From: Campylobacterota bacterium
GTDB taxonomy: Bacteria > Campylobacterota > Campylobacteria > Campylobacterales > Sulfurimonadaceae
Reading direction: 5' to 3'
Assembly: GCA_034717975.1 (NCBI GenBank)
Contig: JAYEMF010000106.1
Coordinates: forward strand, 35,908-75,523
DNA length: 39,616 nt
Shown here: positions 12,001 through 18,000 of the stretch, piece by piece
Layout: the number at the start of each line of letters is the position of its first letter
How positions within the stretch are numbered: the stretch's first letter is position 1
Made by a program: the position numbers

Positions 12001-15000
12001 ATACTTATGGCCACCAGAAAGGGGATGAGGCGCTCAGATCAGTCGCAGAAGTTATGAACGAACAGTTTACGCGACCGGATGATTACCTCTTCAGGCTCGG
12101 CGGAGAAGAGTTTGGTGCGCTTTATTACAGTGATAACCTAGAAAGTGCCTATAAAATGGCAGAAACAGTGAATCAACAGGTTGTAGAGCTTAAAATCGAT
12201 CATGAACAAAACAGTGCATCGCCGTATCTGACCATCTCAATCGGATTGTTTTTTATCCCGGCTGATTGTCATCTTATAGATTTGGATGAGATCTATAAAG
12301 CAGCTGACGATGCACTATACAGAGCCAAAGAGAGTGGACGTAATTGTATTGAGCTGGTTGAGAGTACAATATGTTAATAAACAGCAGACAGGAGGATAAG
12401 ATGCGTATAGTTATTGTTGGCGGCGGGATTGCCGCCGTATATACAGCCAATGCCATAATGGAGCTCAAACGTGATGCCGAAGTGGTGATCGTCTCCGGGG
12501 AGAAGTATGCCCCGTATGACCGTATTCACCTCTGTGCCTTGGTGGATGGGAGTGAAGATGTCGATGGCGTGACGCTTGAACTCGACCCTGCTGTCAAAGT
12601 CGAGCTGGATCAGGAGATCACCTCCATCGACAGAGATGCCAAACGTATCTACTCCGAGCATGCGATGTTCGCTTATGACAAGCTCATCATCACGACCGGT
12701 TCCAAGCCCGGAGAACTTTTCGATATCAGCGGCATTGAAAACGCTACGACCTTTCGAAGTGCCGATGACAGCTTCAAGATAGCGAAAAGCATCAAAGATA
12801 AAAATGTCATCATCATGGGAGTCGGACCGATCGGTCTGGAACTGCTCGACACCTTGATGAAGATGCCCGATGCCAAAGGGATCTACCTGCTCTCACGCGG
12901 ACCCCATCTCTACTCGAAAGATCTCAACCCCGCTTCCATCGCACTGATCCAGGGGATCTTTGAAGCCGATCCGCGCATTACCATCTCCTTCAATGACGAG
13001 ATCGTCGATAAAGAAACTGAAGGTAGTCAAATCACGACAGTCTCTACCAAAAAACATACCATTGATGACCCGTTCATCATTTTTGGCGTCGGTATCTCTC
13101 CCAATGTCGGTTTTGCTGCGTCATCTGTTGAGGTCAATAAAGGGGTTCTGGTCGATGATACGATGTGTTCAAGCGACCCCGACATCTATGCTGTCGGCGA
13201 ATCGGCTGAAATACGCTCAAGCGGCTATGTTGCCGGCCGAGTGAAAGAGTGTACGCTTCAGGCGAATGTCGCCGTAGCGAACATTTTGAAGACAGAAGAG
13301 CTGAGCATCAAGGAGGAAGCGGCGATTGACGGGCTGAAGGTCGGCTCCTTCCTCTTTACCGATGTCTCATCGCCGAATTATGATGTCCGCAGTGAAGATA
13401 ACGAGCATATTGTTCTCTATTCGAAAAAAGAGAACCGCATTGACCAGTACATCATCAACAGCGACAGACTTGTAAGGTTCATCGGGATCAACTCCAACAT
13501 CGATGCCATACAGCTGAAAAAAATGATCGAAAACGATGAAGAGGTGGATGCTGCCTACTTCTACCAAAACCGTCTTATCAGTGAACGCGGCCGCATCGTA
13601 TGTAGCTGTGAGAGTGTCTTTGAACAGGACCTTGTCGATCTTATCAAAGAGAATGCCGTTACCAGTTTTGGTGAGCTTAAAGGATTGAGCGAAGCGGGCC
13701 GAACCTGCGGCCGATGTAAAAAAGATATCTCCGATATTATCGCCGCAACCCCGGTAGACCCGGAAGAGGCAGCGCGTATCAAGGCGGAGAAAATAGCAGC
13801 CAGAGATGCTGCAGAGCTGGCAAAAGTTCAAAAGCGGATCGACAAGTTCAACAAACTGCACCCGGCCAATCAGATCGATGCCAGTAACCTTGAAGAGGCG
13901 ATCAACTCCTTTGATATGAATCAGGAGTATAACCGCTGGGTCTCGATGATCACGGCCAGCATGCGGCTTCCGCATCGCTATGAAGGGGTGGTCAAGTGCG
14001 GGATCCAGAATCTTAACAAGATCCCGATTGTCTGGCTGGAGCTGTCGGACTGTACCGGCAACTCCGAGGGTTTCATAAAGTCAGCCCATCCGAAAGTGGA
14101 CGACCTGATCCTGAAATATATCTCGCTCGATTATCACGATCTGCTTATGGCGGCGGCAGGCGATCAGTCTGAGAGCGTGCTTGAAGGTATCATTGAAAAT
14201 GACAAGGGTAAGTATATTCTGATGGTCGAAGGGGCGGTGCCGCTGGGGATGGATGGCAAGTTCCTGCGTATCGGGCCAAAAGGCGAAACGGGTGAAGAGC
14301 TTTTGAAACGGGTAGCCAAGGATGCAGCAGCGGTGCTGGCTGTCGGTACCTGTGCGCTCGATGGCGGTGTCGTTGCCGCTGAACCCAATCCTACCGGAGC
14401 GGTAGGTGTGGCCGAGGCGCTTGGCAGGGACGATATCATCAACCTGCCGGGTTGTCCGGTCAACCCGATCAATATTGTCGGAACCCTGCTGCACTACATC
14501 ATGTTTGACGAACTCCCGGCCCTCGATGCCAAGAACCGACCGGAGTGGGCCTACAGTTTCAGGGTCCATGACAACTGTGAACGGCGCGGTCACTACGATA
14601 TGGATGAGTTTGTCCTGGAGTGGGGTGATGAGGGGGCGAAAAAAGGGTGGTGCCTTTTCGAGATGGGCTGTAAAGGGCCGTATGCCGATCTGAACTGTTC
14701 GCTTGTGAAGTTCAATGAGGGAACCAGCTGGCCGGTTCAGGTGGGCCATGGCTGTTTTGCCTGCGGTGAAGGGAAGATCGCCTTCGACCACTACGCCAAC
14801 AATAGAAAATTAGAGGTTGAACCCGATGAAAAATAAAAAGATTGTCATTGACCCGATCACCAGAATAGAGGGGCATCTGCGTATTGAAGTAGAGATCGAC
14901 GAGAACAATGTTGTGCAAGAGGCATGGGCTTCAGGACAGCTCTTCCGCGGGATCGAAACCATCCTCAAAGGGCGGGACCCGCGTGACGCCGGGCTGATCG

Positions 15001-18000
15001 CACAGCGTATCTGCGGGGTCTGTACCAATGTCCACTACCGTGCTTCCATCAGTGCGGTAGAGGATGCCTATAGTATTGTGCTGCCAAAAAATGCCGAGAT
15101 CATCCGCAATCTCACAACACTGGCACTCTTTGTGCAGGATCACCTTGTCCACTATTACCATCTGCATTCACTCGATTTTGTAGATGTGGTCAGTGCGCTT
15201 GATGCGGATGAGAGAGAGGCAAAAGAGGTGAGTAAGAAGTTTCATCACTACCCTTACCGCAGTTCGACAGGCCGCTTTAGCAATGTCAAAGAGAAGCTGG
15301 CTTCTTTTGTCAAAGCGGGGCGTCTGGGACTCTTTGCCAATGGTTACTGGGGGCACAGTGAGTATAAACTGACCCCGGAAGAGAACCTCGTTCATATGAG
15401 CCACTATCTCGACGCTCTGCGTATTCAGCGTGATCTGAGCAAAGCGATCGCCATCTTTGCCGGCAAGACGCCGCATCCGCAGAACCTTATCGTCGGCGGG
15501 GTGACGAGTGTCGCCGATATGCTAAACCCGCAGCGTCTGAACGATTTTATGTTTATTATCAAAGATGTCAGAGACTTTATCGAGCGGGCCTACATCCCCG
15601 ATATTATGATGGTAACAAAAGCCTATATGGGTGAGATCAAAGCGGGTGTCGGGCGCGGAAGCGGCAACTTCCTGGTTGCCGGCGGTTACCGCTTCGGCAA
15701 GGCGAAGACACTCTTTAGCGAAGGGGTGGTCACGGGGCATGATTTTGAAAATATCGAAGCCTTTGATGTGACGAACATTACCGAAGAGGCATCACGGGCA
15801 TGGTATACGGATGATGAACCGGCTTCTCCGTATGAAGGAACAACTACTCCGAAGTATACTGATCTCAATGAGGATGGAAGCCTTAAGACCGAGGGCAAAT
15901 ACAGCTGGGTCAAAGCGCCGCGCTATAAGGGAAAACCTATGGAAGTGGGGCCGCTTGCGCGGATGGTGATCGGCTATGCCAAAGATTCGGAAGTCATCAA
16001 GCCCTATATGGAGCGCTTTATGGAGGCGACCGGAATGGAGCTGATGGACTTTTCGACGACCGTCGGACGTACTGCCGCACGGGCGGTCGAGGCGCAGATC
16101 TGTAATGACTACATCTTCGATTTTATCAGTGATCTCATCGAAAATATCAAGTATTATGATGAAGAGACCTGGACCAAGTACGTGTTTGAAGAGCTGCCGA
16201 CAGAAGGAAAAGGTGCCGGGATTTTTGAGGTTCCGCGCGGAATGCTCTCCCACTTCGTCCGTATCGAAGATGCGAAGATCGCCAACTATCAGGCGGTGGT
16301 CCCGACGACATGGAACGCTTCACCCAAAGATGCCTCAAATGTTCGCGGGCCGTATGAAGAGTCCCTTGTAGGTATCACCCTGGCTGATCCTTCCGCTCCA
16401 CTGGAAGTGTTACGGGTGATCCACTCGTTCGATCCGTGCCTTGCCTGCGCGGTACATGTGATCGATACCAAAGGGAGAGAGCTGGCGGAGTACAGAGTCA
16501 ATTCGGCCTGTAGCATTTGAGCCGCATCATTGTCATCGGTGTTGGAAACATCCTCTTCCTGGATGAAGGGGTAGGTGTCTATGCCGCGGCCTATCTGGAT
16601 GCCAACTACAGTTTTTCTCCACCCATAGAGATCATAGACGGGGGAACACTGGGAGTAAGGCTCAGTGAGTATTTTCTGGCGTATGATGATGTCATTATCT
16701 GCGATACGGTCTCTATCGATGATAAGGCAGGCTCTGTCTACGCGCTGAACGATGAGGCACTCTCCGGTCTGGGAAAAACGGCGCAGAGTGTCCACGAGAT
16801 CGAGATCACACAGATGCTCGAGACCTGCAAAATGGCTGGCAAGTGTGCCGATGTCGGGATCGTAGGGGTGGTTCCAGAAGATATTGAAACGGTAGCTTTC
16901 GGGCTTAGCCGACATCTCAAAGATGCCTTTCCCCAAATGATAGAGACGATTATCTCGTTACTTGAGACCAAAGGTATTACTGTGCAAAAGGGTGGGAAGT
17001 CCACCCCGCTTTCAGAGATCATTGCCGGCTATACGACGGCTACGGCCCCGCGATGAAGCATCTAAAGATCACCTTGACCGGCATTGTCCAAGGTGTCGGA
17101 TTTCGCCCTTTTGTTTATAAACTGGCTCAGCGGCATCACTTGAAAGGGTATGTATTAAACAACGGCAAAGGGGTGAGTGTAGAGCTTGAAGGAAAAGCGG
17201 AATCACTTGATCTGTTTATGAGATCCATGTATGAAGAGCTCCCGCCACTTGCACGGATAGACAGTGTGATTACAGATGATGCTCTGCCTGCTGTCGGTTA
17301 TAGAACATTTGATATTCTCCACTCCCGGGAAAACAGCCAAAAAAGTGCGTTGGTATCGCCGGATATATCGCTGTGTGATGCGTGTCTGGCAGAGATGCAG
17401 GATCCGCACAACAGACGCTACCGCTACCCTTTCATCAACTGTACGAACTGTGGTCCGCGCTACAGCATCATAAAATCTATTCCTTATGACCGATCACGTA
17501 CTTCAATGGATGTTTTTACTATGTGCCCCGAGTGTAAAGCAGAGTATGAGGACCCCGGTGACCGCCGTTACCATGCCGAGCCTATAAGCTGTGATGCGTG
17601 CGGACCGGAACTGCTCTGTCTGGACAGAGAGAGGAGGATCAAAGGAGAGGGAGGTGATGCCGTTGGTCTGACTGCCGAAGCTGTCAAAGCGGGGCAGATC
17701 GTCGCCATCAAAGGGGTTGGCGGTTTTCATCTGGTCTGTGATGCGACCAATGAAGCGGCAGTCACCCTGCTGCGGGAACGGAAAAAACGCCTTACCAAAC
17801 CTTTTGCGGTGATGTTCCCCTCGCTTAAGGCGCTTAAAAGCAGTGCAGATATTACTCCCGAAGAGGAGGAGCTGATCATCTCCAAAGAGCGGCCCATTGT
17901 TGTTGTCAGGAAAAAGATGGAGAGCATTGTAGCTGATGGTGTCGCTCCGGCCATTGATCGTCTAGGTGTTTTTTTACCCTATACGCCGCTGCACCATCTG

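What a model noticed while it worked through the whole genome (the two positions that open the first line are those of the whole stretch)
12401..16520. Cytosolic [NiFe] hydrogenase with small subunit fused to an FAD/NAD(P) reductase and a BFD [2Fe-2S] domain
The only group 1/2-type [NiFe] hydrogenase of this genome has an 811-aa small subunit: about 500 N-terminal residues (two Rossmann GxGxxG/A motifs of a Pyr_redox_2 flavoprotein plus a BFD-like CxC...CxxC [2Fe-2S] domain) replace the Tat signal peptide in front of a normal three-cluster small subunit, and no cytochrome b gene lies next to it. I read it as a self-contained two-subunit H2:NAD(P)+ oxidoreductase, which would name the long-sought electron acceptor of the 'cytoplasmic hydrogenase' of sulfur-oxidising Campylobacterota that is thought to feed the reverse TCA cycle. 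A group-1-like hydrogenase wired directly to a flavin/pyridine-nucleotide module would be a new enzyme architecture and [...]
Evidence so far: g01811 domains: Pyr_redox_2 res 1-270 (4e-37), Fer2_BFD 399-448 (Cys401, 403, 436, 439), Oxidored_q6 551-698, NiFe_hyd_SSU_C 718-793. It is 48% identical over res 508-790 to Wolinella HydA, has GxGxxA at 7 and GxGxxG at 140, and has 10 Cys in the small-subunit part. Among solved structures, residues 1-460 alone match NAD(P)H-dependent reductases of iron-sulfur proteins: 1xhc NADH oxidase/nitrite reductase (3e-21), 8c0z_E (4e-19), rubredoxin reductase 3fg2 (4e-18), and BphA4 and putidaredoxin reductases; 24 sequences match at E<=1e-12. The g01812 large subunit is 49% identical to Wolinella HydB; a HycI protease gene and hyp genes follow. 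The only other hydrogenase genes in pfam.tsv are an Ech [...]
(Added by a program. Inside this text positions count along the whole contig: contig position 35,908 is position 1 of the stretch shown here. "Call 12" and the like, gene names such as g00115 and contig names such as C1 are that model's own, and its searches are not shown. The text may have been shortened before it was handed on; [...] marks where a part breaks off. The agent that wrote the report below was given it as the finding of a first reader that could run no searches.)

Follow-up and report, generated by a model that had tools for sequence, protein, structure and literature searches.

The report
Flavoprotein-fused cytoplasmic [NiFe] hydrogenase
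This sulfur bacterium's only uptake-type hydrogenase has its small subunit joined to an NAD(P)H-binding flavoprotein, so it could pass electrons from hydrogen straight to NAD(P)+ inside the cell; genome papers have described this design since 2006, but nobody has measured what it does.

Summary
Window 12401-14836 encodes one 811-aa protein: a NirB-like FAD/NAD(P)/BFD-[2Fe-2S] module, a linker, then a [NiFe] small subunit. The group-1b-like large subunit (14826-16520), a maturation protease and hyp genes follow. There is no Tat motif, membrane anchor or adjacent cytochrome b. It is the genome's only group 1/2 hydrogenase.

The design is conserved. All cofactor ligands are invariant in 222 distinct homologues. 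A full-length copy occurs in 29 of 301 sampled genomes of the order.

The novelty claim fails. Scott 2006 described this two-domain small subunit in Thiomicrospira crunogena XCL-2 and proposed direct H2-NAD(H) coupling. Hansen & Perner 2016 reported it in Sulfuricurvum, Sulfurovum, Sulfurimonas and Arcobacter. This scan had already noted it on three other genomes.

It is also not the published "cytoplasmic hydrogenase" of S. denitrificans. That is a separate group-2d-type enzyme, which lies beside the fused one in 12 of 53 related loci.

New leads:
- The linker is a degenerate Tat signal.
- Ser/Val/Leu/Ile/Ala-Arg166 replaces the acidic residue of NADH-specific relatives, which points to NADPH.
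- The pair Cys45/Cys284 is invariant and unexplained.
- An Ech hydrogenase is often adjacent.

Function remains untested. XCL-2, which carries only this type, showed no H2 uptake.

The parts
12390..12395 (+). Shine-Dalgarno-like AGGAGG, 5 nt before the ATG at 12401
   Evidence: read directly
12401..13210 (+). Fused small subunit, residues 1-270: FAD and NAD(P) Rossmann domains (GGGIAA 7-12; GVGPIG 140-145; Ser165-Arg166 at the end of the NAD beta2 strand; invariant Cys45)
   Evidence: Pfam Pyr_redox_2 2.2e-36. NCBIfam NirB N-terminal half, residues 3-453, 1.7e-40. Invariance in 222 homologues. Alignments to E. coli NirB, NorW and HcaD.
13595..13744 (+). Residues 399-448: BFD-like [2Fe-2S] domain, Cys401/403/436/439
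   Evidence: Pfam Fer2_BFD 1.4e-09. The four Cys align with those of E. coli NirB and are present in 222 of 222 homologues.
13766..14020 (+). Residues 456-540: linker homologous to the N-terminal extension and Tat signal of periplasmic HydA-type small subunits. The twin arginine is lost (RREF becomes QEYN).
   Evidence: Alignment A3. Unfused HydA matches start at query residues 455-508. Aligned Tat segments.
14021..14836 (+). Residues 541-811 plus stop: [NiFe] small-subunit core. Proximal site Cys551-x-Gly-Asn554, Cys651, Cys685. Distal site His723, Cys726, Cys751, Cys757. Medial site Cys766, Cys785, Cys788 with Pro778. No C-terminal membrane anchor.
   Evidence: Pfam. PDB best matches are group 1 small subunits at 3e-78. 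Alignment with E. coli HybO. Invariance.
14826..16520 (+). [NiFe] large subunit (ORF opens at TTG 14817; homologues align from the Met at 14826). L1 RICGVCTNVH, L2 DPCLACAVH, then a 20-residue C-terminal extension.
   Evidence: Pfam 1.1e-203. Sequence. PDB best match D. vulgaris Miyazaki 1h2a_L 1.4e-147. Follows the small subunit in 79 of 80 loci.
16517..17056 (+). HyaD/HybD-type maturation endopeptidase
   Evidence: Pfam HycI 1.3e-23. TIGR00140 1.7e-38.
17053..21743 (+). hypF (17053-19317), hypB (19524-20330), hypC (ORF 20269-20625) and hypD (20622-21743)
   Evidence: Pfam
26154..27536 (+). hypE (26154-27152) and hypA (27195-27536), separated from hypD by an inserted island
   Evidence: Pfam AIRS/AIRS_C and HypA. 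They directly follow hypD in L009, L064, L066 and L081.
4835..9851 (+). Six-gene Ech-type (group 4) membrane [NiFe] hydrogenase, a frequent neighbour of the fused enzyme
   Evidence: Pfam. The large subunit keeps RVCGLCAITH and DPCMSC. EchF lies directly upstream of the fused gene in 20 of 71 loci.
10005..12377 (+). GAF-PAS-GGDEF protein between Ech and the hydrogenase. Low G+C, probably an insertion and not a family trait.
   Evidence: Pfam. G+C 0.38 against about 0.50 in the flanks. A GGDEF gene is adjacent upstream in only 3 of 71 loci.

Best explanation
I read this as a soluble, cytoplasmic, two-subunit [NiFe] hydrogenase that carries its own pyridine-nucleotide module. It descends from a periplasmic, Tat-exported group-1b (HydAB-type) enzyme. 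A NirB-type FAD/NAD(P)H/[2Fe-2S] reductase was joined in front of the small-subunit precursor, and the old signal peptide lost its twin arginine and became the linker.

Inferred electron path: H2 is split at the Ni-Fe site of the large subunit. Electrons then pass through the proximal cluster (three Cys plus Asn), the medial [3Fe-4S] and the distal His-ligated [4Fe-4S] cluster. From there they go to the BFD [2Fe-2S], then to FAD, then to NAD(P)+. NADP+ is the more likely acceptor.

In this rTCA-cycle autotroph the enzyme would make biosynthetic reductant directly from H2. The neighbouring Ech hydrogenase could do the same for ferredoxin.

Shown here: the domains, the ligands, their conservation, the absence of export and anchor features, and the descent. 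Inferred: the order of electron transfer, the direction, and the NADP preference.
For: - Domains and order. The N-terminal part aligns with E. coli NirB residues 1-496 at 27% identity, with all FAD, NAD and four BFD Cys positions in register. The Atlas model aligns structurally with NirB clusters over about 430-450 residues. In NirB this module takes electrons from NADH through FAD and [2Fe-2S]; this is established knowledge of the family and was not tested here.
- Conservation. In 222 distinct homologues of 53-85% identity, G140, G142, E147, R166, the four BFD Cys, His723 and eight of the nine small-subunit Cys are 222 of 222; Cys788 is 221 plus one gap.
- Cofactor preference. Position 165 is S, V, L, I or A and never acidic, and Arg166 is invariant. 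NADH-specific E. coli NirB, NorW and HcaD have E, D and E there.
- Location. There is no RRxF motif and no anchor, and no cytochrome b on the contig.
- Maturation. The large subunit has all four Ni-Fe Cys and a cleavable extension. A protease and hypABCDEF are present.
- Descent. The fused small-subunit parts form one clade (SH-aLRT 100). That clade sits inside a 99-supported group with the Tat-bearing HydA of the same order (quick tree).
- Expression. The SP-41 homologue is transcribed, more so when H2 is the only donor (PMC6501319 passages).
- Context. The own genome has ATP-citrate lyase, PntB and a NuoF-type protein. Ech lies directly upstream in 20 of 71 loci.
Against: - No activity has ever been shown. 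XCL-2, which has only this hydrogenase, consumed no H2 and had no uptake activity in any fraction. In SP-41 a second, group-1d cluster can explain H2 use (PMC4744846 and PMC6501319, passages).
- The proximal site has only three Cys, and the medial cluster is of the [3Fe-4S] type (Pro778). Their potentials might be too high for NAD(P)+ reduction; this is an inference.
- The invariant pair Cys45/Cys284 (222 and 221 of 222) has no role in a simple NirB-like path.
- The distance between the distal cluster and the BFD cluster could not be modelled.
- 18 of the 29 genomes with the fused gene gave no Ech match at E<=1e-80, so the pairing is not obligatory.
Confidence: 0.55

Rival explanations
1. Same enzyme, opposite physiological direction. 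It acts as a valve that oxidises excess NAD(P)H and releases H2 when electron acceptors are scarce, or that supplies H2 to the neighbouring Ech.
For: Scott 2006 proposed this as an alternative for XCL-2. XCL-2 shows no H2 uptake. NirB-type modules normally take electrons from NAD(P)H (family knowledge). Ech is often adjacent.
Against: H2 production from NAD(P)H is unfavourable unless H2 is kept very low (thermodynamic inference). The group-1b lineage is uptake-type. The SP-41 homologue is induced when H2 is the sole donor.
Confidence: 0.15
2. The flavin site does chemistry of its own. The invariant Cys45/Cys284 pair forms a redox-active disulfide, or a persulfide-handling site, beside the flavin. 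H2 electrons (or NAD(P)H) would then reduce a disulfide, persulfide/polysulfide or O2. Alternatively, the pair is a thiol switch that gates the enzyme under oxidising conditions.
For: Cys45 is 222 of 222 and Cys284 is 221 of 222. The aligned residue is Ser in NirB, NorW, HcaD and solved ferredoxin/rubredoxin reductases. Cys284 directly follows the near-invariant Glu283. CoA-disulfide/persulfide reductases and NADH oxidases are among the matches. From recall only: the Ser and Glu positions flank the flavin N5 in putidaredoxin-reductase-type enzymes, and Cys45 resembles the active Cys of Nox/CoADR.
Against: The best family match is NirB-type, not CoADR or Nox (1.7e-40 against 7e-23). The NAD(P) site and the [2Fe-2S] domain are fully conserved. 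The proximity of the two Cys was not testable, and no alignment to a CoADR or Nox Cys was obtained.
Confidence: 0.12
3. It is not a working metabolic hydrogenase. It is either an H2 or redox sensor (for instance linked to the upstream GGDEF protein), or a decaying relic whose clusters are not bound properly, as Hansen & Perner 2016 suspected.
For: No activity was found in XCL-2. The subgroup-specific Fe-S motifs are 'not conserved' according to PMC4744846. A GAF-PAS-GGDEF gene lies directly upstream here.
Against: All 9 cluster Cys, His723 and Asn554 are invariant across 222 sequences, or invariant but for a single gapped row. The C-x-G-N proximal motif is also in 31 of 40 Tat-bearing HydA-type subunits, including 19 of 20 sampled genomes of the order, so it is a lineage trait and not decay. 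A GGDEF gene is adjacent in only 3 of 71 loci. The large subunit keeps a cleavable C-terminal extension and its own protease, unlike the sensor-like 2d-type enzyme, which ends at the His.
Confidence: 0.08
4. It is the 'cytoplasmic hydrogenase' (group II/2d, Suden_1437/1438 type) discussed for S. denitrificans and Aquifex.
For: Both lack a Tat signal and are cytoplasmic. Both have been proposed to feed the rTCA cycle.
Against: In 12 of the 53 loci with at least 3 kb downstream, a separate unfused hydrogenase lies beside the fused one. In L042 its small subunit is 305 aa and its large subunit 431 aa, with L1 RVCGICGHSH and an end at the His. It is followed by Tat-HydA, HydB and cytochrome b, the gene order reported for Suden_1438 to Suden_1434. 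It is 24-30% (small subunit) and 23-39% (large subunit) identical to the fused enzyme. The Suden_1437 primer reads CGICGH.
Confidence: 0.02

Closest known systems
Hydrogenase of Hydrogenovibrio (Thiomicrospira) crunogenus XCL-2 and SP-41 (Tcr_2037/2038). Called 'cluster II' in Hansen & Perner 2016 and 'gene cluster I' in Gonnella 2019. [quoted passage not shown]
   Same: The small subunit is about 813 aa and combines a pyridine-nucleotide-disulfide-oxidoreductase (FAD + NADH) domain with a hydrogenase small-subunit domain. It has no Tat motif and no cytochrome b. Its large subunit has group-1b L1/L2 motifs and groups with Epsilonproteobacteria. hyp genes are in the cluster. My locus L026, from a S. 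kujiense genome, holds a full-length homologue 68-69% identical to the window's protein.
   Different: No sequence of XCL-2 itself was compared here. In this window the cluster is broken by a GGDEF gene and a restriction-modification island, and Ech lies nearby. Like XCL-2, and unlike SP-41, this genome has no other group 1/2 hydrogenase.
Periplasmic, cytochrome-b-linked HydABC (group 1b) of Campylobacterales
   Same: The small-subunit core is 45-52% identical and the large subunit 48-57% identical. They share the N-terminal extension, the C-x-G-N proximal motif, the medial Pro and the distal His. One 99-supported group unites them in the tree.
   Different: HydA has an RRxF Tat motif, a C-terminal membrane helix and an adjacent cytochrome b. 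The fused enzyme has none of these and carries about 455 extra N-terminal residues.
N-terminal half of NAD(P)H-nitrite reductase NirB (TIGR02374)
   Same: The order FAD domain, NAD domain, BFD [2Fe-2S] is the same. It matches at 1.7e-40 over residues 3-453 and is 27% identical to E. coli NirB, with all motif positions aligned. The Atlas shows structural similarity.
   Different: There is no sirohaem/[4Fe-4S] half. Cys45 and Cys284 replace Ser and Gly/other. Ser-Arg replaces Glu-Phe at the end of the NAD beta2 strand.
NAD+-reducing soluble hydrogenases (group 3d, HoxFUYH)
   Same: The proposed reaction is the same: cytoplasmic H2:NAD(P)+ oxidoreduction.
   Different: They are unrelated in build. 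Group 3d uses separate diaphorase subunits with FMN of the complex-I type. Its large subunit matches the window's only at 7e-25, against 1e-147 for group 1b. No group 3 large subunit was found in this genome.
Group 2d 'Aquificae-type' cytoplasmic hydrogenase (Aquifex Hase III, Suden_1437/1438)
   Same: It is cytoplasmic, Tat-less and uncharacterised, and has been proposed to serve the rTCA cycle.
   Different: It is a separate lineage, 23-39% identical over the aligned parts, with a 305-aa unfused small subunit and a 431-aa large subunit without a C-terminal extension. It co-occurs with the fused enzyme in related loci and was not found in this genome.

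Membership tests
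Group 1 (1b-like) [NiFe] hydrogenase | Large subunit with L1 RxCGVCxxxH and L2 DPCxxCxxH Ni-Fe ligands, and closest similarity to group 1 enzymes | tested here: met
   RICGVCTNVH and DPCLACAVH. Best PDB matches are DvMF 1.4e-147, A. vinosum 1.3e-146 and E. coli Hyd-2 1e-142. Group 2a scores 2e-59 and group 3 at most 1e-32. HydDB itself was not run; the '1b' label comes from the papers.
Group 1 (1b-like) [NiFe] hydrogenase | Small subunit with a Tat signal, exported to the periplasm | tested here: not met
   The position of RRxF reads QEYN, and it lies about 505 residues from the N-terminus.
Group 1 (1b-like) [NiFe] hydrogenase | Three Fe-S clusters with canonical ligands (4 Cys proximal; 3 Cys medial; His + 3 Cys distal) | tested here: inconclusive
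   The medial and distal ligands are all present. The proximal site has 3 Cys plus an invariant Asn554. The same motif is in 31 of 40 Tat-bearing HydA relatives. The cluster type cannot be told from sequence.
Group 1 (1b-like) [NiFe] hydrogenase | Cytochrome b or another membrane partner encoded alongside | tested here: not met
   No PF01292 match on the contig and none among the window's ORFs.
XCL-2-type flavoprotein-fused hydrogenase | Small subunit of about 810 aa: N-terminal pyridine-nucleotide-disulfide-oxidoreductase domain with FAD and NAD(P) sites plus a small-subunit domain, Tat-less, with a 1b-like large subunit and no cytochrome b | tested here: met
   A S. kujiense homologue (L026) is 68-69% identical. 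There was no direct alignment to Tcr_2038.
NirB-type FAD/NAD(P)H/[2Fe-2S] reductase module | GxGxxG/A FAD site, GxGxxG NAD site, the GD/GE motif, and the BFD CxC...CxxC | tested here: met
   All align with E. coli NirB and are invariant or nearly so.
NirB-type FAD/NAD(P)H/[2Fe-2S] reductase module | Acidic residue at the end of the NAD beta2 strand (NADH specificity) | tested here: not met
   S/V/L/I/A165 followed by Arg166, against E/D in NirB, NorW and HcaD. This points to NADPH; the reading is an inference.
NirB-type FAD/NAD(P)H/[2Fe-2S] reductase module | Binds FAD and oxidises or reduces NAD(P)(H) | not testable with these tools
   Needs biochemistry.
Group 2d cytoplasmic hydrogenase | L1 of the RxCGICGxxH type, a large subunit that ends at the L2 His, and a short unfused Tat-less small subunit | tested here: not met
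   The window's enzyme differs on all three points. The 2d-like enzyme of L042 shows them.
Group 2c (diguanylate-cyclase-linked) hydrogenase | Conserved linkage to a GGDEF gene (definition recalled from memory) | tested here: not met
   A GGDEF gene is adjacent upstream in 3 of 71 loci. The gene here has a foreign G+C content.
Group 3d NAD-reducing soluble hydrogenase | HoxFU diaphorase subunits and a group 3 large subunit | tested here: not met
   The large subunit matches 5xf9_D only at 7e-25. PF00374 finds no further large subunit in the genome.

The most novel reading that the evidence does not exclude
The fused enzyme is not a plain diaphorase-hydrogenase. The invariant Cys45/Cys284 pair beside the flavin would be a redox-active dithiol. 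Two readings follow: an H2-driven (or NADPH-driven) disulfide/persulfide reductase, or a thiol-gated, O2-protected NADP-reducing hydrogenase. Together with the adjacent Ech hydrogenase it would form a cytoplasmic module that charges both NADPH and ferredoxin for the rTCA cycle directly from H2, without reverse electron flow. In that case environmental surveys that score these genes as 'group 1b respiratory uptake hydrogenases' would misassign their role.
Probability: 0.15. Interest if true: 0.7.

Novelty: new member of a known kind. Interest (0 to 1): 0.35.

Why it matters
The enzyme type is widespread in sulfur-oxidising Campylobacterota. A full-length copy occurs in 29 of 301 sampled genomes of the order, and 240 stretches match in species genomes. 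In some organisms, including this one, it is the only group 1/2 hydrogenase.

Classification by the large subunit files it under group 1b. Current surveys read group 1b as membrane-bound respiratory H2 uptake (passages in PMC10066037 and bioRxiv 10.64898/2026.02.17.706317). If it is instead a cytoplasmic NAD(P)-linked enzyme, H2 would feed carbon fixation directly in these bacteria, and ecological budgets of 'hydrogenotrophy' would need a separate column.

A two-gene NAD(P)-reducing [NiFe] hydrogenase would also interest cofactor-regeneration biotechnology.

The idea is twenty years old and still untested. This report's value lies in sharpening the test: the NADP+ prediction, the Cys pair, the Ech link, and the separation from group 2d. 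It does not report a discovery.

Tried and rejected
- RNA evidence. The look-up of sequencing runs listed no RNA holder, only four DNA runs of one study (X1-X4).
- Complex prediction of the flavoprotein module against the small-subunit core was not available.
So no model, no fold search and no inter-cluster or Cys-Cys distances.
- I sought a residue-level alignment of Cys45 to the active Cys of Nox/CoADR. The five alignments printed were other enzymes, so that resemblance stays a recollection.
- I searched with the N-terminal module alone for stand-alone relatives. The list was filled by members and fragments of the fused family. The closest free-standing flavoproteins were not reached.
- GGDEF link (group-2c-like sensor). 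Rejected, because a GGDEF gene is adjacent upstream in only 3 of 71 loci.
- 'Defective Fe-S sites'. Rejected as a general reading, because the motif is shared with Tat-bearing HydA.
- Obligatory Ech partnership. Rejected, because only 11 of the 29 fused genomes have Ech.
- The tree is the quick version, because the careful search did not finish in time. It has SH-aLRT support only. Its rows were my choice: 14 of the 121 fused proteins, 42 tblastn-derived unfused subunits, 16 of the 150 representatives, and E. coli HybO. The order among the four subclades is unresolved.
- Literature searches that found no description of the fusion beyond the Thiomicrospira/Hydrogenovibrio papers. Supplements (for example Supplementary Figure S5 of PMC4744846) were not read.
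- Identity to Wolinella HydA/HydB and to Tcr_2037/2038 could not be computed, because those sequences were not held.

Full report
**What is there.** Window 12401-16520 holds two overlapping genes on the + strand. The first opens as an ORF at 12371. Its real start is the ATG at 12401, which is preceded by AGGAGG, and homologues begin at the same place. It encodes 811 residues.
- Pfam finds Pyr_redox_2 (1-270), Fer2_BFD (399-448), Oxidored_q6 (551-698) and NiFe_hyd_SSU_C (718-793).
- NCBIfam's best match for residues 3-453 is the N-terminal half of NirB (1.7e-40). Residues 508-792 match the hydrogenase small-subunit model (3.9e-108).
- The second gene (Met at 14826, ORF from 14817) is a 564-567-aa [NiFe] large subunit (1.1e-203). 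It has L1 RICGVCTNVH, L2 DPCLACAVH and a 20-residue C-terminal extension.
- A HyaD/HybD-type endopeptidase and hypF, hypB, hypC and hypD follow. hypE and hypA lie behind an inserted island.

Only 9 of the 10 Cys in the small-subunit part are conserved. Identity to the Wolinella proteins could not be computed.

**Is it real and more than chance?** Yes.
- The 120 best database homologues are 803-836 aa long and 67-100% identical, and all carry both the Pyr_redox_2 and the small-subunit domains.
- A scan of one genome per species found 240 matching stretches. The best 80 were kept, and 79 of them hold the fused gene over at least 550 residues. The large subunit follows in 79 of 80.
- In 301 genomes drawn evenly from the order, 29 (this one included) have a full-length fused gene and two more a partial one. 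The other 221 matching genomes have only an unfused HydA-type small subunit.
- At 50% clustering the fused family collapses to one or two clusters, so it is a tight family.
- In 222 distinct full-length members (53-85% identical to the window's protein), the following are invariant: both Gly of the NAD site, Glu147, Arg166, the four BFD Cys, His723, eight of the nine small-subunit Cys, Asn554 and Cys45. Cys284 is 221 of 222, and Cys788 is 221 with one gap.

**Location and descent.** The protein starts directly with the FAD Rossmann strand. It ends 23 residues after the last cluster Cys, without the membrane helix that HybO and the HydA-type relatives carry. Residues 456-540 align with the N-terminal extension and Tat signal of the periplasmic HydA-type subunits. 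Where those read RREF or RRDF, the fused family reads (Q/R/K/H)E(Y/F)(N/S). Unfused HydA matches across the order start at query residues 455-508. The linker is therefore a dead signal peptide.

No cytochrome b gene lies on the contig. A quick maximum-likelihood tree of small-subunit parts gave these results (73 rows, SH-aLRT only, rows chosen by me):
- The 14 fused rows form one clade (support 100).
- That clade sits inside a 99-supported group with two clades of Tat-bearing HydA and three metagenomic relatives.
- The branching among these four is unresolved.
- E. coli HybO lies outside.

The large subunit is closest to solved group 1b, 1e and 1c enzymes (1e-147 to 1e-142). It is far from group 2a (2e-59) and group 3 (at most 1e-32).

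**The Fe-S sites.** Against E. coli HybO the medial ligands (Cys766, 785, 788; Pro778) and the distal ligands (His723, Cys726, 751, 757) are all present. The proximal site keeps Cys551, 651 and 685, but the second Cys of CxxC is Asn554. [quoted passage not shown] That is too pessimistic. The same C-x-G-N is in 31 of 40 Tat-bearing HydA-type subunits that I extracted, including 19 of 20 genomes sampled across the order. It is also invariant in the fused family. What cluster it binds cannot be told from sequence.

**The flavoprotein module.** It aligns with E. coli NirB 1-496 at 27% identity, with the FAD site, the NAD site, the GE motif and all four BFD Cys in register. The Atlas's own model aligns with NirB clusters over 430-450 residues.

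Two features set it apart.
- First, the residue at the end of the NAD beta2 strand is Glu, Asp and Glu in NADH-specific NirB, NorW and HcaD. In the fused family it is S, V, L, I or A, followed by an invariant Arg. This is the usual signature of NADPH preference (family knowledge; an inference here). The best-scoring BphA4 entries (the 4h4x series) read ARGP where the window reads SRGP. From recall only, those are mutants converted to NADPH use.
- Second, Cys45 replaces the Ser of the 'PPLS/HLS' motif, and Cys284 follows the near-invariant Glu283. Both are family-specific and invariant. From recall only, these two positions flank the flavin in putidaredoxin-reductase-type structures, so a dithiol next to the flavin is possible. 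I could not test this because no structure prediction was available.

**Most likely mechanism.** Electrons would run from H2 through the Ni-Fe site, the proximal, medial and distal clusters, the BFD [2Fe-2S] and FAD, and end on NAD(P)+, probably NADP+. The parts and their conservation are shown. The order, the direction and the cofactor are inferred.

The genomic context fits an autotroph that needs reductant:
- ATP-citrate lyase is present.
- PntB and a NuoF-type protein are present.
- A genuine group-4 Ech hydrogenase, with its Ni-Fe Cys intact, lies upstream.

Ech lies directly upstream of the fused gene in 20 of 71 loci with enough flank. Of 12 sampled genomes that have both, 9 keep them within about 6 kb. 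But 18 of the 29 fused genomes gave no Ech match, so the pairing is frequent and not obligatory.

**Evidence against.**
- Nobody has shown activity.
- XCL-2, which carries only this type, did not consume H2 and had no activity in any fraction.
- SP-41's H2 use can be explained by a second, group-1d cluster, though the fused enzyme's gene is transcribed and rises when H2 is the sole donor.
- No activity was found in soluble fractions of S. denitrificans, but that concerns a different enzyme (see below).

[quoted passage not shown] Of the 53 related loci with at least 3 kb downstream, 12 carry a 2d-like small subunit and 19 a HydA-like one. In many Sulfuricurvum loci three hydrogenases stand in a row:
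- The fused enzyme comes first.
- Next comes an unfused, Tat-less enzyme. In L042 its small subunit is 305 aa and its large subunit 431 aa, with L1 RVCGICGHSH and an end at the L2 His.
- Last come Tat-HydA, HydB and cytochrome b.

The last five genes reproduce the order Suden_1438 to Suden_1434. The published Suden_1437 primer reads C-G-I-C-G-H (my translation, frame assumed). The fused enzyme is therefore a third, distinct type. This genome has neither of the other two.

**Prior knowledge.**
- Scott et al. 2006 (PMC1635747; passages read) wrote that the XCL-2 small subunit "has two domains", one like pyridine nucleotide-disulphide oxidoreductases with FAD and NADH sites. [quoted passage not shown]
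- Hansen & Perner 2016 (PMC4744846; passages) gave its length (813 aa) and its group (1b). They noted the lack of cytochrome b and the clade shared with Epsilonproteobacteria. They also reported the same oversized small subunit in S. kujiense, Sulfurovum sp. AR, S. autotrophica, A. nitrofigilis and T. microaerophilum.
- Gonnella et al. 2019 (PMC6501319; passages) added SP-41.
- Earlier agents of this scan reported the same design on three other genomes. One of their notes led me to the 2006 paper, which I then read myself.
- My four other searches found no further description and no biochemistry.

**Verdict.** This is a real, well-conserved and still uncharacterised enzyme type, and this window is one more member of it. 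Its architecture and the H2:NAD(P)+ hypothesis are already in print. The link to the group 2d enzyme is wrong. The new, testable leads are the vestigial Tat linker, the NADPH-type signature, the invariant Cys45/Cys284 pair, the lineage-wide C-x-G-N proximal motif and the recurrent Ech neighbourhood.

Noticed in passing
window 22010-26136: The hyp operon is split by a low-G+C island (0.33-0.39): an ORF6N-domain gene, a 902-aa MmeI-family restriction-modification enzyme and a RhuM-family gene. They sit between hypD and hypE-hypA. In related loci L009, L064, L066 and L081, hypD is followed directly by hypE-hypA.
   Followed up: partly
window 10005-12377: A 790-aa GAF-PAS-GGDEF gene with G+C 0.38 sits between the Ech cluster and the fused hydrogenase. 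In 20 related loci EchF is followed within 400 nt (mostly about 80 nt) by the fused gene, so this gene is probably a recent insertion. A strong promoter-like match (TGGACA-17-TATAAT, 11 of 12) lies in its 3' end at 11971-11999. Such matches are only slightly enriched in the region: 31 found against 21.9 +/- 4.4 expected.
   Followed up: partly
L042 9001-19919 (also L024, L027, L030, L039, L043, L045, L046, L052, L069): Sulfuricurvum genomes carry three different [NiFe] hydrogenases in one row. These are the fused type, a 2d-like Tat-less type preceded by a TetR gene, and a Tat/cytochrome-b HydABC. An Ech cluster often lies just upstream, making four.
   Followed up: partly
L089-L108 and loci: The proximal-cluster motif of Tat-exported HydA-type small subunits in this order reads C-A-G-N, not CxxC, in 31 of 40 cases (19 of 20 sampled genomes). 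Nine read C-T-G-C and form their own clade. The consequence for the proximal cluster of these respiratory enzymes is unexplained.
   Followed up: partly
P0314 (491 aa, contig 129 kb), P0317 (444 aa, contig 56 kb), P0422: A few ORFs on long contigs hold only the flavoprotein plus BFD part and stop in or just before the linker. They could be split forms, frameshifts or broken genes.
   Followed up: no
P0124 (600 aa fragment, 51% identical): This divergent member of the fused family lacks the short segment that holds the medial-cluster Cys766. It could be a variant or an error.
   Followed up: no
window 27551-39571: Downstream genes are: PEP synthase/PPDK-type enzyme (27551-29965, minus strand; a neighbour of the fused hydrogenase in 8 related loci), a 1062-aa NAD-glutamate dehydrogenase, a NirA-like sirohaem nitrite/sulfite reductase without a flavoprotein module (34219-36123, minus), a NasA-like molybdopterin nitrate reductase (36123-38201, minus) and an MFS transporter.
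   Followed up: no
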